Program-made: the position numbers and the translations under genes
DNA from: a virus
Lineage: Duplodnaviria > Heunggongvirae > Uroviricota > Caudoviricetes
DNA length: 64,000 bases
Direction: 5' to 3' (one strand)
IMG/VR virus record: IMGVR_UViG_3300027852_000034
Span: 33,461 to 97,460 of that record
Shown here: positions 33,003 to 51,988 of the stretch, in pieces
Numbering within the stretch: position 1 is the first letter of the stretch
How the letters are laid out: the number at the start of each line of letters is the position of its first letter
The notes under the pieces: model-generated
Seen by the model: the letters and a program-made list of their open reading frames with translations, nothing else
Told to the model about the DNA's origin: nothing
The model's database searches: none

Positions 33003-33671
33003 ATGACAACGGGGAATAACATGAGTAGTGATTGTAAAAAAGAACCAGAAGATGAATCTATTGCAGACTCTAAAGATAGAAAAACTCTTGCTACTGACTC
33101 TATTACAAATTTGTTAAAATTCGTAGGTGAAGATGTAACAAGAAACGGTCTTATTGAAACCCCTAAAAGAGTAGTTAAAGCCTACGAAGAATTGACCTGG
33201 GGTTTAAGGGTATCAGAAGATGAATTTTTCGACTCCATTGCGAAAGAGTTTGAACTTGCCTACGACCAAATGGTGGCAGTACGTTCTATTAGGTTTACCT
33301 CTATGTGTGAGCACCATTTGCTTCCTTTTATTGGTACTGCTACTGTCGCTTACATACCAGACGCGAAAAAGAATGGCATGGTAATAGGTATTAGCAAACT
33401 TGCTAGACTAGTAGAATATTATGCAGCTAGACCTCAAATTCAAGAACGTATGACCACTCAAATTGCAAAAGCATTAGAGACTTTAATGTCTCCGTTAGGT
33501 ACAGGTGTATGGATTGATGCTGTCCACACATGCATGTCTATCAGAGGTGTTAAAGCCGTGGGCGCCTCTACTGTAACCTCTGATTTACGTGGTGTGATAA
33601 GAGAAAATCCTGAAACTCGTAGTGAATTTTTATCCCTTGCAAGAAGTAACATGTTCCAAGGTATACAATGA
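33003..33671 (+). CDS. folE: GTP cyclohydrolase I
   Basis: [10 protein letters not shown] signature, LIETPKRV, length 222 aa. Confidence 0.8.
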
Positions 33672-33950
33672 ATGACGTACCCTTACCGATGCACTACAAG
33701 AAGTTGTCGGAAATATGTCACCTTAAAAAAGAAAAAAGAAGAATACATAAGAACACCCCATTGTAAAGATTGTGGAGGCAATTTAAGTTACTCACCACAA
33801 ATGAGAAAAAAGGATAAGAAAAGAACGTGTACTTGTGATGCTTACCCTTTTCCTCATAAAAAAACTACGTCTGTTTGGTGTAAGTATCATCCTACAGGGC
33901 CTACTGAAGAAGATTGGGAAGAACGTTATAGCAGTGTTCCTAAATTTTAA
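33672..33950 (+). CDS. Zn-ribbon hypothetical protein
   Basis: ORF 92 aa, CTTRSC...CKDCGG...CTCD. Confidence 0.5.
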   Translation: MTYPYRCTTRSCRKYVTLKKKKEEYIRTPHCKDCGGNLSYSPQMRKKDKKRTCTCDAYPFPHKKTTSVWCKYHPTGPTEEDWEERYSSVPKF

Positions 33951-33954
33951 AACC

Positions 33955-34377
33955 ATGGCAAAAAGACATAAATTTAGATTGTGTGTTTCATATCCTGATG
34001 ATAGGGACAAAACAAAACGTCCTCCATTGCCCGTATGGTTAGCTCCTGATAAAGATTTAACTAATGCTACTATAGGTCAACTAAGGAGTTATGAATACTG
34101 GACTCAAATTTATTGGGCTACACCTCCCTGGATAACAAAAGAAATGATATTAGAAATGAAAGGTATATATGAAACAGCTACAGCATCAGAGCACGTTGAT
34201 CATACGGTACCTTTGAAAGGGAAAACAGTTTGTGGATTACATGTACCCTGGAATTTACAAAAACTACCTGAAAAGACTAACCTTGTTAAGTCTAATGATA
34301 TGTGGCCTGATAGTTGGTTAGAACCTATGGCATTAGAACTAGAACATAATCCTCATCAACTTAGTTTAGGAATTTAG
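33955..34377 (+). CDS. HNH endonuclease
   Basis: ORF track 33835..34377 trimmed to MAKRHKF; SEHVDHTVPLKGKTVCGLHVPWNLQ is an HNH motif. Confidence 0.6.
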   Translation: MAKRHKFRLCVSYPDDRDKTKRPPLPVWLAPDKDLTNATIGQLRSYEYWTQIYWATPPWITKEMILEMKGIYETATASEHVDHTVPLKGKTVCGLHVPWNLQKLPEKTNLVKSNDMWPDSWLEPMALELEHNPHQLSLGI

Positions 34378-34378
34378 A

Positions 34379-35548
34379 ATGAGACGGATAATTTATTTAC
34401 CTCTTGAATCATACGAAGCACGATACACTAAACAACTATTGGATTGGAATGTAGATAGATTCAAAGAAAAAGAAATTCCATATATCTTGGTAGAAGGAAC
34501 TAGATTAACAGATGATGAGGATATAAATGTAGGCAAAGTTTTAGATGCACATGGACGTACATACTATTCGCTTACCCAAATAGCTAAATTAGTCAAACTT
34601 TTACAATCTGGAATAATCACTTACACAGATGTAATTTTTACTGAGGACATGTTCGCACCTGGTTACGAAGCACTTCCCTATATTTTTGAGCAACTTCCTG
34701 TTACACATAGACCCAGTTACTTTACCAGATGTCTAGCCCAATCTATCGACCCTGATGATTTCGTATTCCCCTGGCGAAATTGGATGCGCCATTATGAAAA
34801 ACTTGTAAGTACTACTGCTACAGGTATCATGATGGCTAATGATGCTATGGGATTACATATGGAAATTGCAATGGTAGATGATTGCCCTCTTTACGTTACA
34901 GGATTACCATTTGATAAAATTGAGGTTAGAAAACGCGCAGGGTACGTAACCTCTTTAAGAGCTAGAAAAAATCAAGTTATATTCAGTTCACGTTGGGATA
35001 CAGAAAAACAACCTGATTTCTACATGGATTTAATTGAGGCTTGTGCAGAAGAATGCCCTAAAATAGAGTTTTGCATATGCACAGGTAATAAAGAATTACG
35101 AAGCAATGACCGTACATATGTTCAACGTGCAAAGAAGTTGGAACAAGAAGGGAAGCTTAAAATTTATACAGGTCTTAAAAAGAATGAATACTACATGGTC
35201 CTTGCAGATTCAAAGGTACAGTTTAATTGTGCATTACAAGATTGGCAAAGCAACACACTGAATGAGGCTTCTGCTTTAGGTACTCAAAGTTTATGTCCAG
35301 CTTATAGATCTTTTCCACAAGCATTGAACAACAACAGTAAATATTTATATGTGCCCTGGTCTATTGCTGATGCAAAACAGAAACTCTTAGCGTTACTTGA
35401 TAATATTGAAGCAGATGATGATGTTTCATATCCTGCTGATGATCAGCATGAAACAATTAATCGTACTATAGATATTTTGATGGGTAACGGTTCTAAGTAT
35501 TTGTATAAACCTTACCATTATGAAACACCTGTTAAAGGTGCCGTATGA
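34379..35548 (+). CDS. hypothetical protein (389 aa) in 7-deazaguanine locus
   Basis: Long ORF; no PP-loop (not QueC); possible nucleotide/base-modifying enzyme; family not recognised. Confidence 0.55.
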   Translation: MRRIIYLPLESYEARYTKQLLDWNVDRFKEKEIPYILVEGTRLTDDEDINVGKVLDAHGRTYYSLTQIAKLVKLLQSGIITYTDVIFTEDMFAPGYEALPYIFEQLPVTHRPSYFTRCLAQSIDPDDFVFPWRNWMRHYEKLVSTTATGIMMANDAMGLHMEIAMVDDCPLYVTGLPFDKIEVRKRAGYVTSLRARKNQVIFSSRWDTEKQPDFYMDLIEACAEECPKIEFCICTGNKELRSNDRTYVQRAKKLEQEGKLKIYTGLKKNEYYMVLADSKVQFNCALQDWQSNTLNEASALGTQSLCPAYRSFPQALNNNSKYLYVPWSIADAKQKLLALLDNIEADDDVSYPADDQHETINRTIDILMGNGSKYLYKPYHYETPVKGAV

Positions 35549-35604
35549 TAATCTTAGGGCTTTCAATCCCGGCGATGTAGGTTCGATTCCTACCGGCACC
35601 TCCA
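35537..35604 (+). ncRNA. tRNA-like 3' fragment (acceptor stem + T-arm + CCA, no proper D/anticodon arms)
   Basis: GGTGCCG...GTAGGTTCGATTCCTAC-CGGCACC-T-CCA; overlaps last 12 nt of upstream CDS; 64-nt body too short for cloverleaf. Confidence 0.35.
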
Positions 35605-35630
35605 CATAGTATTAACAAGAGTGTATATAT

Positions 35631-36017
35631 ATGAACTTTCAAGGCATAGAAATAACGGAAGATCGTCCAGAAATCATTACACTCGTTGGTTCATCCAGAT
35701 TTTGCGGACATATGGCAGTAATGGCCTGGGAGTTTGAAAAAGCTGGTAAGATTGCACTAGGGCTACATCTCCTGCCACAGGAGTACTGTGAAGAAAAAGG
35801 TATGGTGCCTGATGAAAATGGTCATATACACCATATCGGTGAGCAGGAAGGAGTTGAACATCAAATGGATACCCTTCATTTTAAAAAAATAGAGATGGCT
35901 GATTCTATTTATGTGATGAATGTTACTGGCTATATAGGTGAGTCTACTGCAAGAGAAATTGCATATGCCAAGTATCTTAAAAAACCAATTTCATATTACG
36001 AAGATGCGAACACTTAA
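35631..36017 (+). CDS. hypothetical protein, possibly nucleoside 2-deoxyribosyltransferase-like fold
   Basis: ORF 128 aa; C-terminal ESTAREIAYAKYLKKPI resembles NDT-family C-termini (weak). Confidence 0.35.
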   Translation: MNFQGIEITEDRPEIITLVGSSRFCGHMAVMAWEFEKAGKIALGLHLLPQEYCEEKGMVPDENGHIHHIGEQEGVEHQMDTLHFKKIEMADSIYVMNVTGYIGESTAREIAYAKYLKKPISYYEDANT

Positions 36018-36110
36018 GGAGGTAAGCATGAATAACTGAATGCAATAAAGACCCACCGTAATTCTTTGGAGTTTATTTAACCCTAAATTAATTTCCAAGA
36101 GGATTACATT

Positions 36111-36446
36111 ATGAGCATTTATTTGAAAATCAAACTGAAGTCATTGGCCGCTGAAGCCTGTATCATTCGTCAACAGGAACAGAAGATGCGAGGTCCTATA
36201 TGGGGGCCAAAGAGTTCGGGACTTACTTTACATCGTAAAGGAGTAGTAAGATCAGAAGCTAGACACACCCATCTTGCCTATGGATATATTCGAGGTAAGA
36301 AGTTATCAGAGATAGAGGCATTTAGCCACACTGTTCCTGACTGGTCTAAAGTCTATCGTATGATTTGCAAATACGATACTACTACTGAAAAGGATTTTAA
36401 AGAGTGGAAAAGTGAAGATAGAGTTCCGAGGAAAAAAGTAGCATAA
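36111..36446 (+). CDS. hypothetical protein
   Basis: ORF 111 aa. Confidence 0.5.
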   Translation: MSIYLKIKLKSLAAEACIIRQQEQKMRGPIWGPKSSGLTLHRKGVVRSEARHTHLAYGYIRGKKLSEIEAFSHTVPDWSKVYRMICKYDTTTEKDFKEWKSEDRVPRKKVA

Positions 36447-36460
36447 TTTGACTTGAAGTA

Positions 36461-36506
36461 TTGCCCCAGGTAAGATTAACAACTGGGGCAATATAGTTAC
36501 TTTATT
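36461..36506 (+). terminator. possible terminator hairpin
   Basis: TTGCCCCAG...CTGGGGCAA 9-bp stem, weak U-tract. Confidence 0.4.
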
Positions 36507-36529
36507 GTTACAACTAAAGGTATATTTAA

Positions 36530-36892
36530 ATGGAAACTAACATCATTATCAACACCGTATTTTCTGCGCTTCATCATTGGGGAACTATTCCTGAAGATCA
36601 TTCACAGATTTACTTAAAATCTCCACACAGGCATACATTTCACATCCAATTGAAAATACCTGTAAGACATGATGATCGTGATATTGAATTCATCGAACTT
36701 AAAAGGAAAGTGGATAAATACTTAAATACTAGATTTGTTAAGGAAGGATGGATCACTCCTGATTTAGGTGCTATGTCCTGTGAAATGTTTTGTAAAATAT
36801 TGTTGGTAGAATTCGATGCTGTTTATTGCAAAGTTATGGAAGATGGCGAAAATGGCGCAGAAGTAATTTCAGACATAAGAGGACTAAGATGA
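36530..36892 (+). CDS. QueD-like (6-carboxytetrahydropterin synthase / T-fold) protein
   Basis: IEFIELKRKVDKYLNTRF and SCEMFCKILLVEF align with the QueD blocks IDFAELKAAFKP and SEVLAKWIWDQV; the C-x3-HGH catalytic motif is replaced by SPHRHTFH, so activity is uncertain. Confidence 0.45.
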   Translation: METNIIINTVFSALHHWGTIPEDHSQIYLKSPHRHTFHIQLKIPVRHDDRDIEFIELKRKVDKYLNTRFVKEGWITPDLGAMSCEMFCKILLVEFDAVYCKVMEDGENGAEVISDIRGLR

Positions 36893-37404
36893 AGCAAGAA
36901 ATGCCAGCAATGAATTCAGTTCTTTATTCAGCTAGTACAGTTGATCCTTCTTCACTTACAAATATTATAACCACTACTAGTGCAGGTACTGTTTTAGACC
37001 CTGAACAACCCCTTGATAATATGATGTATCAAACACCAGATCCGTCTGTAAGAACTTTTACTTCACCTAAAATGCCCAGTAACCCCTCACTTGAAAAATT
37101 AGCTAAATCATTAGCAAAGGAGATAGACATGTCAAACCGTCGTTATGTACAAGTATTCTTAGTTGATCCAGATGAAAAGATGCCTTTAAACAAAGCTGTA
37201 TTATACAAAGGTGAACCTGAACTTACGGACATGTCAGATGATGAATTGTTCTTTTCTATCCCTGTCATGGAGTTATTAAAAACTCACAATGCAGAAAGAG
37301 GAACAACGAAAGACGAAGCTACCTCAGGTTCAAAAGCCAAGTGTTTAAAACCTATAAGAATCAAAGACCTGTCAATGACAGTGGTTACTATAGCGTCTTT
37401 CTAA
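36889..37404 (+). CDS. hypothetical protein
   Basis: ORF track 36826..37404 trimmed to MKQEMPAMN (AAGAGGACTAAGATG). Confidence 0.5.
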   Translation: MKQEMPAMNSVLYSASTVDPSSLTNIITTTSAGTVLDPEQPLDNMMYQTPDPSVRTFTSPKMPSNPSLEKLAKSLAKEIDMSNRRYVQVFLVDPDEKMPLNKAVLYKGEPELTDMSDDELFFSIPVMELLKTHNAERGTTKDEATSGSKAKCLKPIRIKDLSMTVVTIASF

Positions 37405-37421
37405 ATACTTTAAGTACTTTT

Positions 37422-37445
37422 AGGTATATATTATATTATATATAA
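37422..37445 (+). promoter_or_regulatory. class-A promoter-like motif
   Basis: AGGTATATATTATATTATATATAA upstream of gene 37473. Confidence 0.5.
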
Positions 37446-37691: not shown

Positions 37692-37692
37692 T

Positions 37693-41409: not shown

Positions 41410-42981
41410 ATGTATGAACAGTTAAAACCCAAAAATCATAATGTAAAAGAGCCTGTACATTTCAAAGATTTTAGAATTGCTTTAGATAGTGGAGCGCACA
41501 CTCTCTATACCCAAATCTTTGTAGGTGTAGATAACGCCAAGGGTAAGCAAATGAAAAAGCTTTCCCAAGCAGACTACTCTTATATGGAAAGCGATGGATT
41601 CAAATCTTATTTAGAGGATTACATCCAATTCTTACTTGAACATGGTGATAAATATGATTTCTATGTAACACTGGATATTATCGGTGATGCAGAAAAATCC
41701 TGGGAAGTAACCGAATACATAGAGTCCTTTGGTCTTAAACCTCTTCCTGTGTATCACTGGGGAGAGACAACCTATTGGCTAGAAAAAATGGTCGAAAAAT
41801 ATGACTACGTAGGGATAGGTGGTCTAGGTCAAGAAGTCTCGAAAGAAAAATTCATCCCGTTCGCTGATAACGCTTTCAAGGTTGTGTGTGATAAATACGG
41901 ACATCCGAAAGTAAAGACCCACGGATTTGCTGTAGCCAGTCCTGAACTAATTGCCAAGTACCCCTGGCATACGTGTGATGCCAGCACATGGACTGCGCTA
42001 TCACGTAATGGTACTGTGTACATACCCAAGCCTATTATGAAAGGAAAGGAAGTAATTGATTTTAATTACCTTACTCCTCCTATGTCACTCCCTGTAACAG
42101 TTAGACGCTCCAATCATACCAATCACATGGATCATAAATCTCCTTTGTACTCTGATCTATTAGAAAAATACTTTGGTCAATACGGCTATACTTTTGAGGA
42201 TGTCAAACGTAGATATGACGCTAGGGATGTACTGAACATTAAATTCTTTAAACAGATGGAAGCTGCTGCAAAAGAAGTCCTTGAAAAAAATAACGGATAC
42301 GGAGAAGGTGCAAACATTATTCTTGCCGGAACTCCTAGTGGTGCTTCTACTAATCTATCACGTTTCGTAGATCTCTTAGGTGAAATAAATGAACCTGAAA
42401 CCTATTGGTTCGGAAGTTATTACTACAAACGACACAACCAGAATCTAATGGATTTACAAGAGAAGCATCTTGCAGGTGAAGATGCACGATTACTACAACT
42501 GCTTCCTAGACGCAGACGAAATGTTACGGTGATTGAGCCTACAGAACTTGTACATGATGAATTCCCTTTTACTAGGAAGGTTCCTGAGCAAAGTAAAGTT
42601 GCAGTTACAGGATCACCTACTTCTAAAATAACAGACAGGGAAGTACCTACCGATAAACCGATACAACGGAGAAAGTTATCTGTAAAACCAAGATCCCTTA
42701 CAAATCATGACTCTGACACATCAGCATGGCCGGATGCTTTAGAAGAACCAAAAAAGAACAAGCACATAACTGAGGCTGCTAAGACTGTAAACACTTTGAG
42801 GGAAGCCTTAAGTATCTCAAGTTTCGGTGCTGCGCATTTAACAGATGAGCAAATTGAAATAGAGGTACAACGTAGTATGATTAAGATTATTAATTCAATT
42901 AAATATATGGTATGCAAAAATACTAAAGCTTTTGCTACTACTGAAGTATCCATCAACGTAAATGGGAAGATCTATGAATAA
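41410..42981 (+). CDS. dpdA: DpdA-like DNA-guanine transglycosylase (TGT family)
   Basis: 523 aa; N-terminal region with TGT/DpdA-like pattern (DSGAHTLYTQIF..., FYVTLDIIGD, YVGIGGLGQ); co-located with folE/queD-like/queE. Confidence 0.6.
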   Translation: MYEQLKPKNHNVKEPVHFKDFRIALDSGAHTLYTQIFVGVDNAKGKQMKKLSQADYSYMESDGFKSYLEDYIQFLLEHGDKYDFYVTLDIIGDAEKSWEVTEYIESFGLKPLPVYHWGETTYWLEKMVEKYDYVGIGGLGQEVSKEKFIPFADNAFKVVCDKYGHPKVKTHGFAVASPELIAKYPWHTCDASTWTALSRNGTVYIPKPIMKGKEVIDFNYLTPPMSLPVTVRRSNHTNHMDHKSPLYSDLLEKYFGQYGYTFEDVKRRYDARDVLNIKFFKQMEAAAKEVLEKNNGYGEGANIILAGTPSGASTNLSRFVDLLGEINEPETYWFGSYYYKRHNQNLMDLQEKHLAGEDARLLQLLPRRRRNVTVIEPTELVHDEFPFTRKVPEQSKVAVTGSPTSKITDREVPTDKPIQRRKLSVKPRSLTNHDSDTSAWPDALEEPKKNKHITEAAKTVNTLREALSISSFGAAHLTDEQIEIEVQRSMIKIINSIKYMVCKNTKAFATTEVSINVNGKIYE

Positions 42982-44056
42982 AAAAGACCTAAGTGTTAAG
43001 CTGAATCATGCAAAGCCTTTCTTAATAAGTCAGGACTTTATTCCTATTCTGACCCATTTCTGTTTTGACAATGATAGTGTTGTGGCTTACAACGATATTG
43101 CAGGCATCTCTATATCTATGGAGAGTGAATTGAATTGCGCCGTACCTGGTAGCTTGCTATTAAAAATGCTAGGTACAATGACAGCAGAAACCGTAAGAGT
43201 CGAAATGCCTAATGATAGAAACATCAATCTATTATCAGGTAAAACAAAATTACGATTACCTATATTGTCACCTGAAGAATTTGTTTTCGACATACCGAAT
43301 ACTGATGATCTTAAGTCTATTCAGATACCAAAAGAATTTCTTGTAGGTTTGAAAAAATGCTTGACATCAGTAGGCATTGATCCATCTCATCCTGAACAAA
43401 CTGGTATTACTTGGTCATTAGAAAAAGATAGAATGACCATATTCTCTACTGATAATAAATCTATCTCTATGTTCTTTTCTGAAGTAGAGGTTGATGTAGA
43501 AGAAACAACCAAAATAATTACACCTGCATTTTTCTGTAATCAAGTAATTGAACTTTCAGAATACTATGCAGAAAATATGGATAGCATCACACTCCATTTT
43601 GATGAATCTGTAGTAGTTGCTGAATTAGGCGAAAACAGTTCCTGTAAAATCTTTTCTAGATTAATCAATGCTTCAAATCTAATGGATTACAATGTAATTA
43701 TAGGTAATATGATTGAAGGTATTGAAGATACCGATTTTGTAGAAGCTCCAGAAGATTTAGACTCTACATTAGAACGTGCTTCGGTGCTGTTAACTACAGG
43801 TGATATCACTACTTCTGAAGTTACCATCAATAATACAGAAGCAGTATTCAATACAGAAAGTCCTTTTGGTAAAGCTATAGATACCGTAGGATTTTCTAAT
43901 GACTTAGGTTCTTTTAGATTCGAAGTTGATCCTGCTTTGATTCAGCGCGGTTTTAAAGTAGCTGACAGTATTGCTATTGTATCGAAGTTGATTGTCATGA
44001 AAGATGCTGACAGTACATTTATCCAATTAATCAGTCACTCAAACACCGGAGTTTAG
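42962..44056 (+). CDS. DNA polymerase sliding clamp (DnaN-like beta clamp)
   Basis: 364 aa; N-terminus aligns with E. coli DnaN (LLKPLQQVSGPLGGRPTLPILGN... vs LNHAKPFLISQDFIPILTHF...); directly upstream of the polymerase. Confidence 0.55.
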   Translation: MGRSMNKKDLSVKLNHAKPFLISQDFIPILTHFCFDNDSVVAYNDIAGISISMESELNCAVPGSLLLKMLGTMTAETVRVEMPNDRNINLLSGKTKLRLPILSPEEFVFDIPNTDDLKSIQIPKEFLVGLKKCLTSVGIDPSHPEQTGITWSLEKDRMTIFSTDNKSISMFFSEVEVDVEETTKIITPAFFCNQVIELSEYYAENMDSITLHFDESVVVAELGENSSCKIFSRLINASNLMDYNVIIGNMIEGIEDTDFVEAPEDLDSTLERASVLLTTGDITTSEVTINNTEAVFNTESPFGKAIDTVGFSNDLGSFRFEVDPALIQRGFKVADSIAIVSKLIVMKDADSTFIQLISHSNTGV

Positions 44057-44057
44057 T

Positions 44058-46634
44058 ATGGGGTTCTTCTTCCCTGATTCAGGTGGAACAAACAAAAGAT
44101 CCAACAAAAAAATTCCACTGCACACTGCAAAGGAACTTGGATGTAAAGTTTGTCCTAGAGCTAAACTTAAAGGATTTACTCCAAAGATGGAACCACAAGG
44201 AAGTGACAAACCTGTAATCTATATACTTAGAGGTGCTCTAAGTAAAGAGGAAGATAAATTTGGAGATCATTTAAGTGATCCTGGGGGAGAATTCTTATTA
44301 CAACAGTACGGACCTAATTGGGATGAACTAATCCGCTACAACAACACAGTGCGTTGCCACTCTTCAAAACCCCCTGATGAAATAGAAATAGAGTGTTGTA
44401 AAGGATATTTGGAAAAGGACATTGAAGATACTAAACCTGAAGTAATAATAGGTGCAGGACAACTTCCTCTTTCATGGCAATTCCAAACTGGTAATGTAGC
44501 AAAATGGAGGCGTAGATTAGTCCCTGTAAAAATAGGGACACATGTATGTTGGTACTACCCAATATATGATCCTGAATTTGTGTTGGAAAAAAGGCGCTTC
44601 AATAAAAAAACAAATAAGAAAGATATCAAAACAGAGTATGACCATATCTTCGAAAAGGATATGGAACACATTCTACATCTAATTGAAAATGATCTATTAC
44701 CTGAACCTAAAATCTATGACAACTACATGGAAGGTATTGTATGGACTGAGGGTAATAAATCTGATAAAGAATTAAATAAAGTACTAGATTGGTTAAAAGA
44801 ATTTACTAATTTAGAAGAACCTCATGCAGTTGATATTGAAACAAATGGATTACGTCCTTACATTGAGGACGCTAAAATCATAACAATATCTATAGGTACC
44901 TATGATCGAACAGTTGCATTTCCAGTTCACTATCCAGGTGCTTGGACACCGCAACAACTAAAAATAATTGATGCAGCAATAAAAGAATACTTAGTTAAAT
45001 CTGCTACCAAAATAGCGCACAACACCAAGTTCGAATTAGAGTGGCTAGCCTTTGAAAATTTTTATGGTGAAGATGTACTAACACAAACTAATTGGGGGGA
45101 TACCCAAGGACAAGCCTATGTTCTTGATGAACGTAGAGGCATGATGAGTCTGGATATACTTGTAAGACTATACTTCGGTTTTAACTTAAAAGAACTTTCT
45201 AATATAGATACTTCAAGAATAATAGACTATCCGTTATCCAAGGTATTACCTTATAACGGTCTTGATACTAAATGGACACACAAGCTGTACTTAGAACAAC
45301 ACAAAAAATTAAAGAAAGTACCTTCATTATTACAAGTGTACTATGAACTATGCAAAGCTATACCGACATTAACAAAATGTCAGCAAATAGGTATACCTAT
45401 AGATTATGAATTACGTGATGAGGTTGAAAAAGAACTTACAAAAGAAATAAAGGGTATTGAAAAAGAATTAAAAGAATCTTCTGAAGTAATAGATTATGAA
45501 TCTCGGTATGGTCCATACAACCCTGAATCACCTCACAACCTCATGCGTCTACTGAAAGAAGTTTGTGGATTAGACGATGAATTACGCACAAAAGAGGGCG
45601 GTTATACTACAGGAGAAGATGTACTATCAAAACTAAAAGATGTTCCTATAGCCCCCCTTACACTGCGTTACAGAGCACTTCAAAAGAAAATGGGGACCTA
45701 CATCACACCTCTTATAAAGCATTGTTATCATTCAGATGGAAGATTACATACTAACTTTAATCTATATGAAACTGCAACTGGTCGTCTTTCTTCTAATAAC
45801 CCCAACATGCAAAACTGGCCTAATAGAAAAGGCAAAGAAATTAGAAGGCTAATCGTACCACCAAAAAATCATTGGATTGTATCTGCTGACTACGGACAGA
45901 TCGAAGCACGTATCATTGGTGTAGCTTCTCAGGATAATAATTTCTGTGATGCCTTATGGCATGACCTAGATGTGCATATGGATTGGGCTATTAAAATTGC
46001 AGAAGAGTATCCGCAAGTAGTTGGTGGAGTACGCAACATTGATAATCTAGACAAAATGAAGAAGTTCAGAAAGGATGTAAAGAATCAATGGACCTTCCCT
46101 GCATTTTATGGAGCTTCACCTTATTCGATTGCTAGAGCACTAGGTGTACCTACTGACATTGTCCTAGACCTATTTAAAGAATTTTGGAACACTTTTAGAG
46201 GTGTGAAGAAATGGCAAGACTGGGTTCAGAATTTTTATCAAAAACATGGATACGTAGAAACATTAACAGGTCGAAGAAGATATGGACCTCTTGCAATGAA
46301 CAAAATTATCAATACACCTATTCAAGGAACGGCCTCTGATATATGTGTAAATGCTATGAATAGACTTACAAATGAAGGGATTCAAGTTGTGATGAATATT
46401 CACGATGATGTAACCAGTTTCGTACCTGATGATGAATTAGAAGATCAGATAGAATTTATTGCTCAAGAAATGTGTTGTGTACCTTATAAATGGATTAACG
46501 TACCTATTGCTATTGAAGTGGCAGTTGGTGAAAATTGGTGTGACCAAGAAGAGGTTGGTACTTTTACTTCTACAGAATTTATGAAGGTAGAAAAAGGATT
46601 ACGACCTATTGAAGCTTATACGGAGTTACAGTAA
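44058..46634 (+). CDS. DNA polymerase I (family A) with 3'-5' exonuclease
   Basis: Exo I DIETNGL; pol motif A DYGQIEARI; motif B K...FPAFYG; motif C IHDDV; 858 aa. Confidence 0.9.
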   Translation: MGFFFPDSGGTNKRSNKKIPLHTAKELGCKVCPRAKLKGFTPKMEPQGSDKPVIYILRGALSKEEDKFGDHLSDPGGEFLLQQYGPNWDELIRYNNTVRCHSSKPPDEIEIECCKGYLEKDIEDTKPEVIIGAGQLPLSWQFQTGNVAKWRRRLVPVKIGTHVCWYYPIYDPEFVLEKRRFNKKTNKKDIKTEYDHIFEKDMEHILHLIENDLLPEPKIYDNYMEGIVWTEGNKSDKELNKVLDWLKEFTNLEEPHAVDIETNGLRPYIEDAKIITISIGTYDRTVAFPVHYPGAWTPQQLKIIDAAIKEYLVKSATKIAHNTKFELEWLAFENFYGEDVLTQTNWGDTQGQAYVLDERRGMMSLDILVRLYFGFNLKELSNIDTSRIIDYPLSKVLPYNGLDTKWTHKLYLEQHKKLKKVPSLLQVYYELCKAIPTLTKCQQIGIPIDYELRDEVEKELTKEIKGIEKELKESSEVIDYESRYGPYNPESPHNLMRLLKEVCGLDDELRTKEGGYTTGEDVLSKLKDVPIAPLTLRYRALQKKMGTYITPLIKHCYHSDGRLHTNFNLYETATGRLSSNNPNMQNWPNRKGKEIRRLIVPPKNHWIVSADYGQIEARIIGVASQDNNFCDALWHDLDVHMDWAIKIAEEYPQVVGGVRNIDNLDKMKKFRKDVKNQWTFPAFYGASPYSIARALGVPTDIVLDLFKEFWNTFRGVKKWQDWVQNFYQKHGYVETLTGRRRYGPLAMNKIINTPIQGTASDICVNAMNRLTNEGIQVVMNIHDDVTSFVPDDELEDQIEFIAQEMCCVPYKWINVPIAIEVAVGENWCDQEEVGTFTSTEFMKVEKGLRPIEAYTELQ

Positions 46635-47438: not shown

Positions 47439-48383
47439 ATGAATGAAGATCTACATGTTGCCTATAGACCTGAAATATTTGATGAGGTAATTGGACAAGA
47501 CCATATTATTGATTCTTTAAAACACATCCAAGAAAAAAATGTTTGGCCTCATGCTTACCTGTTAGTAGGTCCAAGTGGTTGTGGTAAGACTACTGTAGGT
47601 AGAATCATTGCTAATGAATTAGGATGTGAACCTTCTAGTCTTGTAGAAATTGATGCAGCCTCACATTCTAGTGTAGATGGTGTACGCCAACTTTCTGCTT
47701 CTTTACAATACACAGGCTTTGGTGAAACACCTACAAGAGTAATTATAATTGATGAATGTCATTCACTCTCTAAACAAGCATGGCAAGCATTATTAAAACC
47801 TATTGAAGAACCACCTGCTCATATTTATTTTATCCTGTGTACTACTGAAGAGGATAAAGTACCTGAAACAATCAAAACAAGATGTAGTCAATATAACTTT
47901 AGATCAGTACCTTCCGATATTTTAGCTGAATTAGTGGATGTAATAGCTGAGTTAGAAGAAATCCCTATCACCGAAAAGATGGCTACTCTAATTGCTCAAG
48001 AAGCTGACGGGAGTCCTAGAAAAGCTTTGACTCTGCTTTCCAAGGCTAGAGGTGTAGAAAATATAGAAGATCTTAAAGATATTCTTGAAAGTGCTAGTGA
48101 CAATAAATCTATTATTGAACTGTGTAGGCTGTTGTTAAAAACACCTAATTGGAAACGTGCAATTAGATTGATTAATGATATGGAAGAGTTACCACCAGAA
48201 ACAATAAGGCTTACTATTGTAAGTTACATGTCCAAGGTACTATTAAACACAACTGATGAACGTAAGGCAATTAAAGTTCTTACTGTTTTAGAATCTTTTT
48301 CTGAACCGTTCAATTCTTCAGAGAAAAAAGCACCCTTATTGTTAGCAGTAGGTAATTTATGTTTTGGAGCAGATGATGAATAG
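47439..48383 (+). CDS. clamp loader AAA+ ATPase (DnaX/gp44-like)
   Basis: Walker A GPSGCGKTT; Walker B IIIDECH; SRC-like TRC; 314 aa. Confidence 0.75.
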   Translation: MNEDLHVAYRPEIFDEVIGQDHIIDSLKHIQEKNVWPHAYLLVGPSGCGKTTVGRIIANELGCEPSSLVEIDAASHSSVDGVRQLSASLQYTGFGETPTRVIIIDECHSLSKQAWQALLKPIEEPPAHIYFILCTTEEDKVPETIKTRCSQYNFRSVPSDILAELVDVIAELEEIPITEKMATLIAQEADGSPRKALTLLSKARGVENIEDLKDILESASDNKSIIELCRLLLKTPNWKRAIRLINDMEELPPETIRLTIVSYMSKVLLNTTDERKAIKVLTVLESFSEPFNSSEKKAPLLLAVGNLCFGADDE

Positions 48384-48888
48384 CATTACAGATTTAAAAG
48401 AATATTTACAGATTGATAAGTTTAGTCTTGATACAGATATTGAACGTCAAGCACACTTTTTTCACCGAGTAGCTGAAATTACAACCGCAGCTATAGATGC
48501 AAGAGATCATGCAAAGAATGACCTGGCTACAATAGAAGCAGAAATTAATACTGATTATAGAACAGGCCATCTTGAGGATAAAGTAAAGTTCACTGAAAAA
48601 TCCTTGGACAGTGAAGTTCACTTAACAGAGGACTATCAAAATGCCTATAAGCACTTCTTACATTGTAAGATGAAAGCCGATGAAGCTTTGGCTTTGAAAG
48701 AAGCCTTCATACAACGAGGTTTCATGTTGCGTGAACTGGCTAGCTTATATGTATCAGGATATTTTGCTGAATTTTCTACTAAGAGTACTGATGATAAAGA
48801 TGAATTAGATTCAGCTAACAGAAGGCAAAAGGTATCAGAAAAACGTAGACCTTTAAGAACCCGTGAAAGGAAAACGGCTAAAGATTGA
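48364..48888 (+). CDS. hypothetical protein (possibly clamp-loader accessory subunit)
   Basis: ORF 174 aa overlapping clamp-loader stop. Confidence 0.45.
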   Translation: MEQMMNSITDLKEYLQIDKFSLDTDIERQAHFFHRVAEITTAAIDARDHAKNDLATIEAEINTDYRTGHLEDKVKFTEKSLDSEVHLTEDYQNAYKHFLHCKMKADEALALKEAFIQRGFMLRELASLYVSGYFAEFSTKSTDDKDELDSANRRQKVSEKRRPLRTRERKTAKD

Positions 48889-48889
48889 C

Positions 48890-49039
48890 AATGTTCAAAT
48901 TATTCGATTACTTAGGACAAGCCTTACTTATAGTGCTTGCCATAGCCGCAACAGCCTTCATTATTTATATAATTTTTAAGGTAGCTACCACGGCTATTCT
49001 GCAGGCAAAAAAAGACTTTGAAACTCGAAATAAACCCTA
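48890..49039 (+). CDS. small membrane protein (49 aa)
   Basis: MFKLFDYLGQALLIVLAIAATAFIIYIIF; below ORF-track cutoff. Confidence 0.3.
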
Positions 49040-49057
49040 ACCCTTTGAGGATTTTTA

Positions 49058-49078
49058 AGGTATAATATAACTGCAACT
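49058..49078 (+). promoter_or_regulatory. class-B promoter-like motif AAGGTATAATATAACTGCAAC
   Basis: AGGTATAAT core upstream of SSB gene. Confidence 0.45.
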
Positions 49079-49124
49079 TGTACACTTTTGTACGTCATGC
49101 ATAAACAAATCGGAGATTAGAAAA

Positions 49125-50213
49125 ATGGGAAAAAGAAAATTTTCTTATACAAAACGTTCTTATGACAATGCTCGTAAAAGAGCAGAACAATCAGCAGGTT
49201 CCCGTGATGTTTACATCAATGAGGATATCAAATTATATAAACCTTCTGAAGGACAGAACTTACTACGTATTTTACCACCTTCTTGGGACGATGCAGAACA
49301 TTACGGTCATGATCTGTATGTTCATTACAATATCGGTCCTGATAATGCTGCCTACACATGCTTAAACAAGATGAAAGGGGAAGCATGCCCGATATGTGAA
49401 GAACGTATGAGGGCAGAACACGAAGGTGATAAAGATTACGCTAGAAAGTTAAAGCCTACCAAGCGTGTTCTTTTCTATCTGATAGATCGTGATAGAGAAG
49501 GTGAGGGTGTAAAAGCTTGGGCTGCTCCATGGACTGTAGATAAAGAGATCATGATCCAAGCTACTGATTCACGTTCAAGGGAATTTTTTCCTGTAGACGA
49601 TCCAGAAGAAGGCTTTGACGTTAAGGTTACACGCACAGGTTCAGGTGAACGTACTGAATACTCTGTATCCATTGCTCGTAGACCTAGTGAACTGGAGTTG
49701 GATGATGATATGGTTGATCTCTTAGAAGATTTACCACTCCCTGAGATAGTCAAATACTACGAATATGATCGCATTAAGCAAGTATTCGAAGGTACTGCAC
49801 CTGCTACTACTACGCCCGATGATGATAAGGATGATAAGGATGATAAGGATGATGATAGTCGTTCTTCACGTAGAGGTTCTGAACGTGCTGAAAAAGAGGA
49901 TCAACCACAGTTTGATATGTCCTATGAAGAAGTCCAAGGTCTACAAGGTGATGATCTAGATACAGTTGTAGAGGAAACAGGTTTAGATATTGATCCTAGT
50001 AACTATGATAGTGATGGTGAATTAGCTGATGATATCTGTGATGCACTAGGTTTGAAACCTGCTCGTTCTCGTAGGAAACTGAAAGAGAAAGAGCCTGAAA
50101 AGGAAGATGATCCAGAACCTAAGAAAGAAGAGGACGATGATGGAGGAACTTCTACCCGGCGTTCTAAAGTGACCGATAAGTTATCAGGGTTACGTAAACG
50201 TAGAGGTAAGTAA
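49125..50213 (+). CDS. gp32-like single-stranded DNA-binding protein
   Basis: RILPPSWDD...CLNKMKGEACPIC resembles the T4 gp32 RFLPS...C..C Zn region; acidic C-terminal tail with DDKDDKDDK repeats. Confidence 0.6.
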   Translation: MGKRKFSYTKRSYDNARKRAEQSAGSRDVYINEDIKLYKPSEGQNLLRILPPSWDDAEHYGHDLYVHYNIGPDNAAYTCLNKMKGEACPICEERMRAEHEGDKDYARKLKPTKRVLFYLIDRDREGEGVKAWAAPWTVDKEIMIQATDSRSREFFPVDDPEEGFDVKVTRTGSGERTEYSVSIARRPSELELDDDMVDLLEDLPLPEIVKYYEYDRIKQVFEGTAPATTTPDDDKDDKDDKDDDSRSSRRGSERAEKEDQPQFDMSYEEVQGLQGDDLDTVVEETGLDIDPSNYDSDGELADDICDALGLKPARSRRKLKEKEPEKEDDPEPKKEEDDDGGTSTRRSKVTDKLSGLRKRRGK

Positions 50214-50225
50214 TACCTATAGGTA

Positions 50226-50254
50226 GGGGTGCTTAACGCGCCCCTATTCATTTG
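50226..50254 (+). terminator. terminator hairpin
   Basis: GGGGTGC-TTAAC-GCGCCCC 7-bp stem then TATTCATTT. Confidence 0.45.
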
Positions 50255-50265
50255 AAGGAGTTTAA

Positions 50266-51321
50266 ATGTCAGAACGCGCAGCACTAAAACCAGCAGACAA
50301 ACCAGCTACTGGTAGTTACTTCACTAAAGTACATAAAGGCAAATTAAAATTTATTCCTAGTGGTTGCAAACTACTTGATTGTGTATTAGGTGGCGGTTGG
50401 CCACTTGGTCGTATTTCAAATGTAGTAGGTGACAAAAGTAGTGGTAAAACATTACTCGCAATAGAATCCTGTACCAATTTTAATATGGAATATCCTGATG
50501 GATTAATTTACTACATGGAAGCTGAAGCTGCATTTGATCAAGATTACGCTGCTGCACTAGGTATGCCTATTGATGCTATAGATTTTCTTGAAGATCGAAA
50601 TGAAAACACCATTGAAGAACTTTTTGAATTGTTGGATACTATTATTGAGGTACATGAAAAGAATAAACTACCAGGACTATTCATTGTAGATAGCTTAGAT
50701 GCCTTATCTGATAGAGCAGAGCTGGGTCGAAAAATAGATGAAGGTTCTTACGGTGGGTCTAAACCAAAAAAGATGTCTGAAATGTTTCGTAGACTTGCCG
50801 CAAGGTTGGAAGAAACGAATATTCATTTAAAGATTATTTCTCAGGTAAGAGACAACATAGGTGCTATGGTAGGTGCCAAACACACCCGTTCTGGTGGTAG
50901 AGCTTTAGATTTTTATGCTTCTCAAGTTCTATGGTTGAGAGAGGTTAAAAAACATAAGAAAACCTCTAAAGGTATTCAACGCATAATAGGTGTTCAAGTA
51001 AGAGCACAATGTAAGAAAAATAAAGTAGGATTACCATTTAGAGAGTGTGAGTTCCCCATTTATTTCGGATATGGTGTAGATGATCTAGCTGCACATATAG
51101 AGTTTTTAAATATAGTAAGTGAACTTAAACTCGCCTCAGATGTGTTAGGAACTGACATTGCTGACACACTTGACAGTAAGAAGCAAGGAGCCCTTATACG
51201 CAAGATGAGGGGCTTACGAGGGAAGGAAATGCGTGATGCTAGAAAAGTTTTGGATGTAGCTGTTGTTGAGGCATGGGAAAAAATAGAAAAAGCCTTTATG
51301 CCGGTAAACAGCAAATATTAA
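50266..51321 (+). CDS. RecA-family recombinase (UvsX/RadA-like)
   Basis: Walker A GDKSSGKT; RecA-like core; 351 aa; AAGGAGTTTAAATG RBS. Confidence 0.7.
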   Translation: MSERAALKPADKPATGSYFTKVHKGKLKFIPSGCKLLDCVLGGGWPLGRISNVVGDKSSGKTLLAIESCTNFNMEYPDGLIYYMEAEAAFDQDYAAALGMPIDAIDFLEDRNENTIEELFELLDTIIEVHEKNKLPGLFIVDSLDALSDRAELGRKIDEGSYGGSKPKKMSEMFRRLAARLEETNIHLKIISQVRDNIGAMVGAKHTRSGGRALDFYASQVLWLREVKKHKKTSKGIQRIIGVQVRAQCKKNKVGLPFRECEFPIYFGYGVDDLAAHIEFLNIVSELKLASDVLGTDIADTLDSKKQGALIRKMRGLRGKEMRDARKVLDVAVVEAWEKIEKAFMPVNSKY

Positions 51322-51454
51322 CGCTTGCATAACCTTTGTAATTTTATACAATATGTATAACAATTTAATAAGCAGTTGCCAATTGTCAGTTAGAGTTTAT
51401 CACTCCTGTGATACTGTGATGTTGTCATTCGATAGACACTAATTGACACGTCCG

Positions 51455-51478
51455 GCCCACGTTACGGGCTTTTTTTAT
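51455..51478 (+). terminator. rho-independent terminator
   Basis: GGCCC-ACGTTAC-GGGCT hairpin + T7. Confidence 0.5.
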
Positions 51479-51490
51479 GGGAACTGAAAA

Positions 51491-51988
51491 ATGAAAAAAT
51501 TACGGTTATTACTTTTTGAAAAGTGTGATAGGAGTTGTACAGGCTGTTGTAACAATGATTGGGATTTACAATCACTACCAGTAGAAAAAGATTTTAGTCA
51601 ATACGATATAATCATGCTTACAGGTGGTGAACCTATGCTAGAACCACAGATTGTAATAAACACCATAAGAACAATTAAAAAAACCTCTAATGCTGTAATT
51701 TATATGTACACCGCTAAATGCACACACCTCATAGACTTATACAATGTGCTTTCTTATCTTGATGGACTTACTCTTACTTTACATCACCAAGACGATGTAG
51801 CACCTTTTGAAATTTTCAATTCTAAACTTTCAAAATTTTGCCTATCACCGCTATTTAGTTTTAGATTAAATGTCTTTAAAGGTATTGATATTTCACACAT
51901 TGATATCTCTGCATGGAAAGTAAAGGACAATATAAAATGGATAAAAAATCTACATTTACCTACAAATGAAACTTTTAAAAGGTTATAA
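51491..51988 (+). CDS. queE: 7-carboxy-7-deazaguanine synthase QueE (radical SAM)
   Basis: CDRSCTGC CxxxCxxC cluster motif; LTGGEPMLEP; 165 aa compact QueE. Confidence 0.7.
   Translation: MKKLRLLLFEKCDRSCTGCCNNDWDLQSLPVEKDFSQYDIIMLTGGEPMLEPQIVINTIRTIKKTSNAVIYMYTAKCTHLIDLYNVLSYLDGLTLTLHHQDDVAPFEIFNSKLSKFCLSPLFSFRLNVFKGIDISHIDISAWKVKDNIKWIKNLHLPTNETFKRL

What the first reader, a model, noticed from the sequence alone, without database searches (positions are those of the whole stretch)
33003..51988. Dispersed 7-deazaguanine DNA-modification gene set (FolE, QueD-like, QueE, DpdA-like) without a recognisable QueC
- FolE (CEHH signature), a T-fold QueD-like protein and a radical-SAM QueE (CxxxCxxC + TGGEP) together make 7-carboxy-7-deazaguanine from GTP.
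- A 523-aa TGT-family protein (DpdA-like) is the enzyme class that swaps guanine in DNA for 7-deazaguanine derivatives in phages.
- No PP-loop QueC (SGGxDS) is seen in the window. The intervening genes (HNH endonuclease, a 389-aa unknown, an NDT-like protein, a 111-aa unknown) could supply alternative chemistry (dCDG or another derivative) or further decoration.
- The catalytic Cys-x3-HGH of QueD is replaced by HRHTFH, so that step may be non-canonical.
Basis: partly seen in the sequence, partly recalled or inferred. Interest (0 to 1): 0.6.

Follow-up and report, generated by a model that had tools for sequence, protein, structure and literature searches.

The report
Reduced phage 7-deazaguanine DNA-modification cluster
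This phage carries part of a gene set for swapping guanine in its DNA for a 7-deazaguanine base, but the supposed QueD is really DpdL, the supposed QueE is an unrelated small radical-SAM protein, and an overlooked glycosyltransferase is a core member.

Summary
Partly confirmed. FolE (33003-33671) is solid. The 523-aa protein (41410-42981) is a DpdA-type DNA transglycosylase, closest to the tested DpdA of phage 9g, and it sits before the clamp and polymerase genes as in 9g. No QueC is in the window.

Two calls are wrong. The 120-aa T-fold protein is not QueD but DpdL, the proposed CDG decarboxylase. It has the LxxxHRHxF signature and is 38.5% identical to phiST DpdL. The 165-aa radical-SAM protein is not demonstrably QueE. 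It lacks the QGEG N-terminal motif, matches only generic radical-SAM folds, and never accompanies these clusters (0 of 80).

So the window cannot make CDG from GTP by itself. QueD and QueE must come from the host or from the roughly 82 kb of the 158-kb genome that I could not see.

The "389-aa unknown" is a GT4-fold glycosyltransferase. In 80 IMG/VR loci its homologues sit beside DpdL in 77, FolE in 57 and QueE in 53. Sugar-nucleotide enzymes are common there too.

The window is therefore a reduced, insertion-split copy of a widespread QueC-less FolE-GT-DpdL-DpdA cluster whose final base is unknown. It may be dDG or a glycosylated derivative.

The parts
33003..33671 (+). FolE, GTP cyclohydrolase I (222 aa). 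This is the first step from GTP to H2NTP.
   Evidence: Pfam PF01227 1e-64. TIGR00063 206.9 bits, above the cutoff of 181.6. phrog_2197 2e-65. CEHH motif present. 64% identical to FolE of the syntenic relative L011.
33672..34377 (+). Insertion between FolE and the glycosyltransferase. It holds a 92-aa Cys-rich protein (33672-33950) and an HNH/endonuclease VII-like protein (33955-34377). Probably not part of the pathway.
   Evidence: phrog_17384 2e-10; phrog_26577 7e-20 and phrog_1035 endonuclease VII 3.9e-5. No homologues in related clusters. In relatives L011 and L106 no homologue of the inserted genes lies between FolE and GT; L104 has one unrelated 71-aa ORF there.
34379..35548 (+). GT-B fold, GT4-like glycosyltransferase (389 aa). 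It is a conserved partner of DpdL. The acceptor is unknown.
35537..36446 (+). Insertion of about 1 kb between GT and DpdL. It holds a weak tRNA-Glu-like element (35537-35604), a 128-aa protein (35631-36017) and a 111-aa protein (36111-36446). Not conserved in the module.
   Evidence: tRNA at 31.7 bits against a gathering score of 29. The 128-aa family has 5160 representatives, no Pfam model, and 1 of 25 members with a weak Nuc_deoxyrib_tr hit. No homologues in any related locus. GT and DpdL overlap by 4 bases in L011 and L104.
36530..36892 (+). DpdL (120 aa). A T-fold paralogue of QueD, proposed to be a 7-carboxy-7-deazaguanine decarboxylase. Not QueD.
   Evidence: Motif LKSPHRHTF fits LxxxHRHxF. 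38.5% identity and E 1e-18 to phiST CGPG_00067. 52% identical to L011 DpdL. It aligns with 6 DpdL sequences and apart from 4 QueD sequences, which carry C-x3-H-G-Y/H. DpdL HMM 3.5e-48; QueD HMM no hit.
41410..42981 (+). DpdA-type DNA guanine transglycosylase (523 aa). The catalytic core is about residues 20-355. The poorly conserved, partly low-complexity C-terminal tail is about residues 356-523.
   Evidence: phrog_887 9.2e-36. tblastn 2e-20 and blastp 6e-27 to phage 9g DpdA. Shared motifs DSGA, LD, PxxH, GGL, HGF and YPW..D.S.W. No Pfam or NCBIfam Tgt hit. 45-61% identical to relatives in L011, L013, L104 and L106.
42962..46634 (+). Context genes: the sliding clamp (42962-44056) and a UDG-fused family A DNA polymerase (44058-46634), directly downstream of DpdA.
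   Evidence: Pfam DNA_pol3_beta domains (weak); DNA_pol_A 1.5e-73, exonuclease 2e-13, UDG 5.8e-6. The order DpdA-clamp-polymerase is the same as in phage 9g and in L011, L013, L104 and L106.
51491..51988 (+). 165-aa minimal radical-SAM protein. Listed because the finding called it QueE. By every test run here it is not part of the module.

Best explanation
The window holds a reduced, insertion-interrupted copy of a widespread phage cluster for a QueC-independent 7-deazaguanine DNA modification.

Shown:
- FolE, a GT4-fold glycosyltransferase and DpdL form one conserved unit. FolE is followed by GT, and GT is followed directly by DpdL, in L011 and L104; in L106 one short ORF lies between GT and DpdL. 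Here the unit is split by an HNH-containing insert and by a ~1-kb insert.
- A DpdA-type transglycosylase sits 4.5 kb downstream, directly before the clamp and polymerase genes.

Inferred mechanism:
- FolE raises flux from GTP.
- CPH4 and CDG are made by QueD and QueE. The window does not encode these, so they come from the host or from the unseen part of the 158-kb genome.
- DpdL converts CDG to a QueC-independent base. The published proposal is decarboxylation to 7-deazaguanine.
- DpdA exchanges guanine in replicated phage DNA for that base, protecting it from restriction.
- The glycosyltransferase acts in the same pathway, on an unknown acceptor. It may add a sugar to the base or to its precursor.

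The 165-aa radical-SAM protein, the HNH endonuclease, the 128-aa protein and the 111-aa protein are not part of the pathway.
For: Gene identities:
- FolE.
- DpdL signature and homology.
- DpdA homology to the experimentally characterised 9g enzyme, with the same order DpdA-clamp-polymerase.
- GT-B fold of the 389-aa protein.

Module conservation:
- Four relatives of the same lineage (L011, L013, L104, L106) carry the same DpdA. L011, L104 and L106 carry FolE-GT-DpdL upstream of DpdA-clamp-PolA; the L013 contig ends about 1 kb upstream of its DpdA.
- In 80 IMG/VR loci chosen only for the glycosyltransferase, DpdL is present in 77, FolE in 57, QueE in 53, QueD in 35, an X1-type-related putative transglycosylase family in 68 and an epimerase/dehydratase in 55.
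- Cultured phages X1, BUDD, BCSR5, BUCT-ZZ01 and ACP17 have GT and DpdL. The four whose regions I fetched (X1, BCSR5, BUCT-ZZ01, ACP17) also have FolE and QueE nearby and an X1-type DpdA homologue, which is weak in BCSR5 (4.7e-5).

Other support:
- phiST has DpdL, QueD, QueE and FolE, has no QueC, and contains 100% dDG.
- There is no QueC motif in the window and no QueC hit in the flanks.
Against: - No QueD or QueE is in the window, in about 12 kb of flanks, or next to DpdA in L011, L013 and L106. The supply of CDG is therefore assumed, not shown.
- DpdL activity has never been demonstrated. Co-expressing DpdL and DpdA from phiST or ACP17 in E. coli gave no dDG.
- The window's DpdA is nearest to DpdA1 enzymes, which insert preQ0.
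- 7-Deazaguanine has no obvious sugar acceptor at C7, so the glycosyltransferase's role is unexplained.
- About 82 kb of the genome was not examined.
Confidence: 0.6

Rival explanations
1. First reader's model. The window is self-sufficient: FolE, a non-canonical QueD and a short QueE make CDG from GTP, and DpdA inserts CDG (dCDG) or a derivative.
For: The T-fold protein keeps the Zn-binding His pair. The radical-SAM protein has CxxxCxxC and GGEP, and it gives a marginal E ~1e-3 to QueE profiles. A DpdA2 can insert CDG at low efficiency in a queC mutant.
Against: - DpdL coexists with a true QueD in phiST, MA9V-3, BUCT-ZZ01, ACP17 and 35 of 80 IMG/VR loci, so it is not a QueD substitute.
- It lacks the Cys without which QueD is inactive.
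- The 165-aa protein lacks the QueE N-terminal F-x-T/S-x-Q-G-E-G motif, which is seen in the lineage's real QueE in L104.
- It is 45-130 residues shorter than the phage QueEs compared here.
Confidence: 0.06
2. The two halves are separate. DpdA simply inserts host-made preQ0 (dPreQ0), with phage FolE boosting supply. GT and DpdL do something else or are relics of a fuller cluster.
For: The DpdA core is closest to DpdA1 enzymes of 9g-like phages, which insert preQ0. The window has lost the radical-SAM/SPASM, QueE and methyltransferase genes that relatives carry upstream of DpdA. DpdA lies 4.5 kb from FolE-GT-DpdL.
Against: - FolE-GT-DpdL and this DpdA type travel together in all three relatives whose fetched DNA covers both ends (L011, L104, L106).
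- GT and DpdL are intact and keep all family-invariant residues.
- In ACP17 and X1 the DpdA gene lies between or beside GT and DpdL.
Confidence: 0.15
3. FolE, the PTPS-like T-fold protein and the glycosyltransferase make a glycosylated pterin, as in cyanobacterial biopterin glucoside. This would be a small-molecule pathway, not a DNA base.
Against: - QueE, which has no role in pterin glycosides, is within 10 kb in 53 of 80 loci.
- DpdL is tied to dDG in phiST, which has no such GT.
- DpdA-type genes are interleaved with GT and DpdL.
- No reductase of the sepiapterin-reductase type was identified in the window; most ORFs were not scanned individually.
Confidence: 0.1
4. Pre-replicative route. 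The deazapurine base is turned into a nucleotide and incorporated by the phage polymerase. DpdA is accessory.
For: Related clusters carry phosphoribosyltransferase (10 of 80), MazG (13 of 80), HIT and nucleotidyltransferase genes. phiST shows 100% replacement and has a MazG next to DpdL.
Against: The window has no PRTase or MazG homologue. A transglycosylase-family gene is near-universal in these clusters. The published view is post-replicative insertion.
Confidence: 0.05

Closest known systems
Cellulophaga phage phiST dDG system (FolE, QueD, QueE, DpdL, DpdA3; Cui, Hutinet et al., NAR 2023, PMC10516641)
   Same: FolE and a DpdL with the LxxxHRHxF signature (38.5% identity). No QueC. A DpdA-family transglycosylase. 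Predicted anti-restriction role.
   Different: phiST encodes QueD and QueE next to DpdL, uses DpdA3 (no similarity to the window's DpdA), and has a MazG and a P-loop protein but no GT4-like glycosyltransferase. The window has no QueD or QueE and has the glycosyltransferase.
Acidovorax phage ACP17 / Xanthomonas phage X1 / Burkholderia phage BCSR5 / Synechococcus phage BUCT-ZZ01 clusters (product uncharacterised)
   Same: FolE, GT4-like glycosyltransferase and DpdL in one cluster without an annotated QueC. This is the same GT family: 44% identity to BUCT-ZZ01, and HMM 7e-48 to ACP17 gp124.
   Different: Those clusters include a canonical QueE, in ACP17 and BUCT-ZZ01 an annotated QueD, and a different transglycosylase family (phrog_10773 type). 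The window pairs GT and DpdL with a DpdA1-like enzyme and lacks QueD and QueE.
Enterobacteria phage 9g / Queuovirinae DpdA1 system (dG+ / dPreQ0)
   Same: The DpdA catalytic core is homologous (27-28% identity, shared motifs). The gene order DpdA-clamp-DNA polymerase is identical, and FolE is present.
   Different: 9g has QueD, QueE and Gat-QueC and makes preQ0/G+. It has no DpdL and no glycosyltransferase. The window's DpdA has an extra conserved segment (about residues 300-355) and a roughly 170-residue variable tail.
T4 DNA alpha-/beta-glucosyltransferases and eukaryotic queuosine glycosyltransferases (analogy only)
   Different: No sequence-level relationship was shown. No hydroxymethyl-pyrimidine pathway was identified in the window. 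The acceptor is unknown.

Membership tests
GTP cyclohydrolase I (FolE) | Profile score above the curated cutoffs (PF01227, TIGR00063) | tested here: met
   PF01227 217.7 bits (cutoff 27). TIGR00063 206.9 bits (cutoff 181.6).
GTP cyclohydrolase I (FolE) | Zn-binding and catalytic CEHH motif | tested here: met
   [10 protein letters not shown] at window 33306.
QueD (CPH4 synthase, PTPS family) | CxxxHGH signature with the catalytic Cys | tested here: not met
   No C-x3-H-G-H in any of the six frames. The T-fold protein has L-K-S-P-H-R-H in that position.
QueD (CPH4 synthase, PTPS family) | Profile match to PF01242, or to phage QueD profiles | tested here: not met
   No Pfam hit at E <= 0.01. TIGR03112 17 bits against a cutoff of 69. 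The QueD HMMs built here hit nothing in the window.
DpdL (proposed CDG decarboxylase) | LxxxHRHxF signature replacing CxxxHGH (PMC10516641) | tested here: met
   LKSPHRHTF.
DpdL (proposed CDG decarboxylase) | Homology to phiST CGPG_00067 and ACP17 DpdL | tested here: met
   38.5% identity, E 1e-18 to phiST. Hits ACP17 at 2e-5. DpdL HMM 3.5e-48.
DpdL (proposed CDG decarboxylase) | Genomic association with FolE, QueD, QueE and DpdA, and absence of QueC | tested here: inconclusive
   FolE and DpdA are present and QueC is absent. QueD and QueE are absent from the window and flanks, and 82 kb of the genome is unseen.
DpdL (proposed CDG decarboxylase) | CDG decarboxylase activity | not testable with these tools
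   Never shown experimentally for any member.
QueE (CDG synthase) | Radical-SAM CxxxCxxC cluster motif and GGEP SAM motif | tested here: met
   CDRSCTGC and TGGEP. These are generic to the radical-SAM superfamily.
QueE (CDG synthase) | N-terminal substrate-binding motif F-x-S/T-x-Q-G-E-G before the cluster loop | tested here: not met
   The protein starts MKKLRLLLFEKCDRSC. The lineage's true QueE (L104) has FYTMQGEG, and MA9V-3 has FFSQTIQGEG.
QueE (CDG synthase) | Significant profile match to QueE models or structures | tested here: not met
QueE (CDG synthase) | Co-occurrence with deazaguanine genes | tested here: not met
   Present in 0 of 80 GT/DpdL loci, while canonical QueE is in 53 of 80. 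Homologues P0042 and P0048 lie in unrelated contexts.
DpdA (DNA 7-deazaguanine transglycosylase) | Homology to an experimentally characterised DpdA | tested here: met
   9g DpdA: tblastn 2e-20, blastp 6e-27 over residues 22-296. phrog_887 9.2e-36.
DpdA (DNA 7-deazaguanine transglycosylase) | Conserved core motifs shared with 9g DpdA, including invariant Asp residues | tested here: met
   D26 (DSGA), D89, H116, G138, H171-G172-F173 and D190 are invariant in 16 sequences including 9g. Their catalytic roles are inferred, not tested.
   No PF01702 or NCBIfam tgt hit at E <= 0.01. The family profile finds no PDB Tgt.
DpdA (DNA 7-deazaguanine transglycosylase) | Base-exchange activity on DNA, and substrate identity | not testable with these tools
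   Needs biochemistry or mass spectrometry.
GT-B glycosyltransferase (GT4-like) | Two-Rossmann-domain GT-B fold | tested here: met
GT-B glycosyltransferase (GT4-like) | Pfam Glycos_transf_1 above the gathering score | tested here: not met
   23.2 bits against 26.4. Some homologues do carry a precomputed PF00534 hit.
Nucleoside 2-deoxyribosyltransferase (128-aa protein) | Profile match to PF05014 or to a solved NDT/DNPH1 structure | tested here: not met
   No Pfam, PHROG or NCBIfam hit. One of 25 family members has a weak hit at 7e-4. No PDB hit by sequence or by profile.

The most novel reading that the evidence does not exclude
The GT4-fold enzyme that almost always sits beside DpdL, often with an epimerase/dehydratase, a nucleotidyltransferase and a second glycosyltransferase, attaches a sugar to a 7-deazaguanine-derived base or its precursor.

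If so, this widespread cluster type would make a glycosylated deazapurine in DNA, a hypermodification not yet described. At least 584 IMG/VR loci and about 4000 protein clusters carry it, as do ACP17, X1, BCSR5, BUCT-ZZ01 and this phage.

DpdL would then not be a simple decarboxylase giving dDG. That could also explain why DpdL plus DpdA alone gave no product in E. coli.
Probability: 0.3. Interest if true: 0.85.

Novelty: new variant of a known kind. Interest (0 to 1): 0.6.

Why it matters
7-Deazaguanine bases are one of the main ways phages hide their DNA from restriction enzymes, and eight derivatives are known.

This window belongs to a very common but unstudied version of the pathway. That version lacks QueC and has DpdL tightly coupled to a glycosyltransferase and sugar-nucleotide enzymes. 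None of the papers I could search mentions that coupling.

It gives a concrete candidate for the "other unknown enzymes" invoked when DpdL plus DpdA failed to produce dDG heterologously. It also names cultured phages (ACP17, X1, BUDD, BCSR5, BUCT-ZZ01) in which the final base could be identified by mass spectrometry.

For annotation, it shows that short T-fold and radical-SAM proteins near FolE should not be called QueD or QueE from motifs alone.

Tried and rejected
- **Near-identical phage genome.** Megablast of 33003-52000 against INPHARED found nothing. An exact 34-mer from dpdA was absent from IMG/VR. The DpdA protein had no relative in GTDB genomes, so I could not infer a host.
- **QueD, QueE and QueC elsewhere in the window.** I tried six-frame motif scans, tblastn with phiST, MA9V-3, 9g, X1, BUCT-ZZ01 and L104 proteins, and HMMs built from 33 QueD and 55 QueE sequences. 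Nothing turned up apart from the marginal radical-SAM hit.
- **Remnants upstream of DpdA.** I found no trace of the radical-SAM/SPASM, QueE or methyltransferase genes that relatives carry there.
- **The rest of the genome.** The source contig is ena:ERZ27237542:k141_2819039, 158,116 bp, circularly permuted relative to the window. I could extend only about 4.5 kb downstream and 7.5 kb upstream. About 82 kb stays unseen because look-ups are limited to window proteins.
- **Sequence and profile searches against the PDB.** These gave nothing useful for DpdA, the radical-SAM protein, the 128-aa protein or the GT family.
- **Linking transglycosylase families.** hhalign did not link the window's DpdA family to the X1-type, U489 or DpdA3 families. 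The idea that all are TGT-fold enzymes rests on published or submitter annotation, not on my tests.
- **Radical-SAM/SPASM as a QueE substitute.** Rejected, because L104 has both.
- **Supplementary tables of the 2023 paper** are not held, and the 2024 MMBR review is not held.

Full report
**What the window is**

All genes in the region lie on the + strand of a phage-like sequence with about 36% G+C. It has no near relative among 50,697 deposited phage genomes.

The exact proteins occur on a 158,116-bp metagenomic contig, ena:ERZ27237542:k141_2819039. One window gene, at 56918, maps to record position 35460. Another, at 2512, maps to record position 139073. The window is therefore a circular permutation that spans the contig ends, and the circle is about 158.0 kb by arithmetic. 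The window plus the two flanks I could fetch leave about 82 kb (record 47,050-129,072) unseen.

**Checking the four named genes**

*FolE (33003-33671)* is unambiguous. Pfam gives 1e-64, TIGR00063 scores above its equivalog cutoff, and the CEHH motif is present.

*The 523-aa protein (41410-42981)* is a phage DpdA-type enzyme.
- It matches phrog_887 at 9.2e-36.
- Residues 22-296 are 27-28% identical to the DpdA of phage 9g (tblastn 2e-20, blastp 6e-27).
- It shares invariant motifs with 9g DpdA: DSGA, LD, P..H, GGL, HGF and YPW..D.S.W.
- It sits directly upstream of the sliding clamp and a family A polymerase, exactly as in 9g.
- Beyond about residue 355 it is poorly conserved and partly low-complexity.

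*The 120-aa "QueD-like" protein (36530-36892)* is not QueD.
- The paper that defined DpdL states that the QueD signature CxxxHGH is changed to LxxxHRHxF in DpdL, and that QueD is inactive without the Cys (PMC10516641).
- The window protein reads LKSPHRHTF.
- It is 38.5% identical (E 1e-18) to phiST DpdL, CGPG_00067.
- In an alignment it groups with six DpdL sequences and apart from four phage QueDs, which carry C-x3-H-G-Y/H.
- A DpdL HMM scores 3.5e-48, while QueD HMMs find nothing.
- DpdL coexists with a true QueD in phiST, MA9V-3, BUCT-ZZ01 and ACP17, so it is a distinct function.

*The 165-aa "QueE" (51491-51988)* is a real radical-SAM protein, but nothing identifies it as QueE.
- It belongs to a tight family of about 165-aa proteins, with 366 hits.
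- The family profile finds no QueE in the PDB, and NCBIfam gives no QueE model.
- HMMs from 7 and 55 phage QueEs give only E 9e-4 to 3e-3.
- It starts right at the cluster loop and lacks the F-x-T/S-x-Q-G-E-G motif seen in the phage QueEs, including the QueE of a lineage relative.
- Two homologues on long contigs lie among unrelated genes.
- It is absent from 80 of 80 related clusters.
- It is missing at the same position, between RecA and the PDDEXK nuclease, in the two relatives (L011, L106) whose fetched DNA covers that position.

*QueC* is indeed absent. There is no SGGxDS motif in the six frames. No QueC, QueD or QueE Pfam family appears in the precomputed annotation of the flanks.

**The overlooked core member**

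It has 4157 homologues. Only four deposited phages carry it (BUCT-ZZ01, X1, BUDD, BCSR5), and every one also has DpdL. In BUCT-ZZ01, X1 and BCSR5, whose regions I fetched, it lies in a FolE/QueE/DpdL cluster, and BUCT-ZZ01 also has an annotated QueD. In ACP17 a more divergent homologue, gp124, lies between DpdA (gp123) and DpdL (gp125).

HMMs built here then found the following within 10 kb:

| Gene family | Loci out of 80 |
|---|---|
| DpdL | 77 |
| ~490-aa family related to the X1/ACP17-type DpdA (hhalign 88.5%) | 68 |
| FolE | 57 |
| NAD-dependent epimerase/dehydratase | 55 |
| QueE | 53 |
| QueD | 35 |
| Cytidylyltransferase-like protein | 31 |
| Second glycosyltransferase | 22 |

Many of these loci are truncated, so the counts are lower bounds. 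The GT-DpdL pair is therefore a fixed unit of a widespread QueC-less deazaguanine cluster.

**The window's own lineage**

Four metagenomic relatives (L011, L013, L104, L106) share the DpdA at 45-61% identity. In L011, L104 and L106 the order is ParB, FolE, GT, DpdL, ligase, further genes, radical-SAM/SPASM, DpdA, clamp, PolA. L013 shows only radical-SAM/SPASM, DpdA, clamp and PolA, because its contig ends about 1 kb upstream of DpdA.
- GT and DpdL overlap by 4 bases in L011 and L104.
- L104 additionally has a true QueE (5e-44) and a methyltransferase just upstream of DpdA.

In the window the FolE-GT-DpdL unit is split by two inserts:
- a Cys-rich ORF plus an HNH endonuclease (33672-34377);
- a ~1-kb segment (35537-36446) that begins with a weak tRNA-Glu-like element and carries the 128-aa and 111-aa ORFs.

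None of the inserted genes has a homologue in any related locus. The "NDT-like" label for the 128-aa protein is unsupported.

Upstream of DpdA the window has three small ORFs. There is no trace of the radical-SAM/SPASM, QueE or methyltransferase genes.

**Interpretation**

The best reading is a reduced member of the DpdL-type, QueC-independent 7-deazaguanine DNA-modification family.
- The gene identities and the conserved module are shown.
- The chemistry is inferred. FolE feeds the pathway. CDG comes from QueD and QueE that the window does not encode, supplied by the host or by the unseen 82 kb. DpdL converts it; published work proposes decarboxylation to 7-deazaguanine, which fully replaces G in phiST. 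DpdA inserts the base into DNA after replication.
- The glycosyltransferase's role is open.

Its near-obligate linkage to DpdL, together with the sugar-nucleotide enzymes in most clusters, suggests a real glycosylation step. That would mean an undescribed glycosylated deazapurine. [quoted passage not shown]

I found no paper linking glycosyltransferases to these clusters. Two key sources were not available to me.

**Rivals**

- DpdA might simply insert host preQ0, since its nearest characterised relatives do. This cannot be excluded.
- A nucleotide-level route has no support in this window.

**Verdict**

The system is a new variant of a known kind, and it is moderately to highly interesting mainly because of the GT-DpdL coupling it exposes.

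Noticed in passing
window 35537-35604 (+): A weak tRNA-Glu(UUC)-like element (Rfam 31.7 bits against a gathering score of 29; ARAGORN 68 nt) overlaps the stop codon of the glycosyltransferase gene. It sits exactly where the ~1-kb insert begins that separates GT from DpdL. A stronger tRNA-Glu(UUC) lies at 59795. It may be a relic of the insertion event.
   Followed up: partly
window 59414-61369 (+) and 62358-64000 (+, runs off the window end): A cluster of tRNAs (Leu-UAA, Glu-UUC, Gln-UUG, Thr-UGU) plus an odd tRNA-like call with a 2-base anticodon at 60277-60346. It is followed by a Ro60/TROVE + vWA protein (TROVE 1.5e-42, vWA_Ro60 6e-55). Ro60 homologues usually work with Y-RNA-like RNAs that carry tRNA-like modules, so the odd element could be one.
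   Followed up: no
window 44058-46634 (+): The family A DNA polymerase carries an N-terminal uracil-DNA-glycosylase-superfamily domain (PF03167 5.8e-6, residues 48-184). Relatives have the same fusion. A 2025 preprint listed describes UDG-fused phage PolA enzymes.
   Followed up: partly
window 21208-22176 (-), 24353-25288 (+), 30930-31766 (+): A Rep3-type plasmid replication initiator on the opposite strand, and two ParB-like proteins. These hint at plasmid-like maintenance, or at a partition system of a large phage.
   Followed up: no
window 23782-24270 (+): A circularly permuted YpsA SLOG-family protein (PF12694 5.2e-25). This family is predicted to bind nucleotides or nucleotide-derived ligands.
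   Followed up: no
L011 8788-9678, L013 140-1099, L104 7451-8362, L106 9079-9999: In four relatives a ~300-aa radical-SAM/SPASM (twitch) protein sits immediately upstream of DpdA, and in L013 it overlaps the DpdA start. The window lacks it. It coexists with a true QueE in L104, so it is not a QueE substitute. It may further modify the inserted base.
   Followed up: partly
L017-L019 (TARA and other marine contigs) 511-3180 and 9124-13924; L015 5093-5554: Some GT/DpdL clusters also carry two large radical-SAM proteins, MazG, a HIT protein, a cytidylyltransferase-like protein and a phosphoribosyltransferase. In BUCT-ZZ01 the last is annotated xanthine-guanine PRTase. These hint at nucleotide-level handling of the deazapurine in those phages.
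   Followed up: partly
L003 11458-12339 (Chryseobacterium phage MA9V-3); L004 9122-10273 (Vibrio phage Bakedbeans); L010 14271-14948 (Vibrio phage D479): DpdL genes repeatedly sit beside homing-endonuclease genes or carry long N-terminal extensions: an HNH-type N-terminal part in MA9V-3, a 260-aa extension of unknown nature in Bakedbeans, and an adjacent homing endonuclease in D479. This parallels the HNH insert next to FolE in the window.
   Followed up: no
window 39730-40608 (+): A Band_7/SPFH-domain protein with an N-terminal lipoprotein-like signal is conserved between the ligase and DpdA in the window and L011 (57% identity).
   Followed up: no
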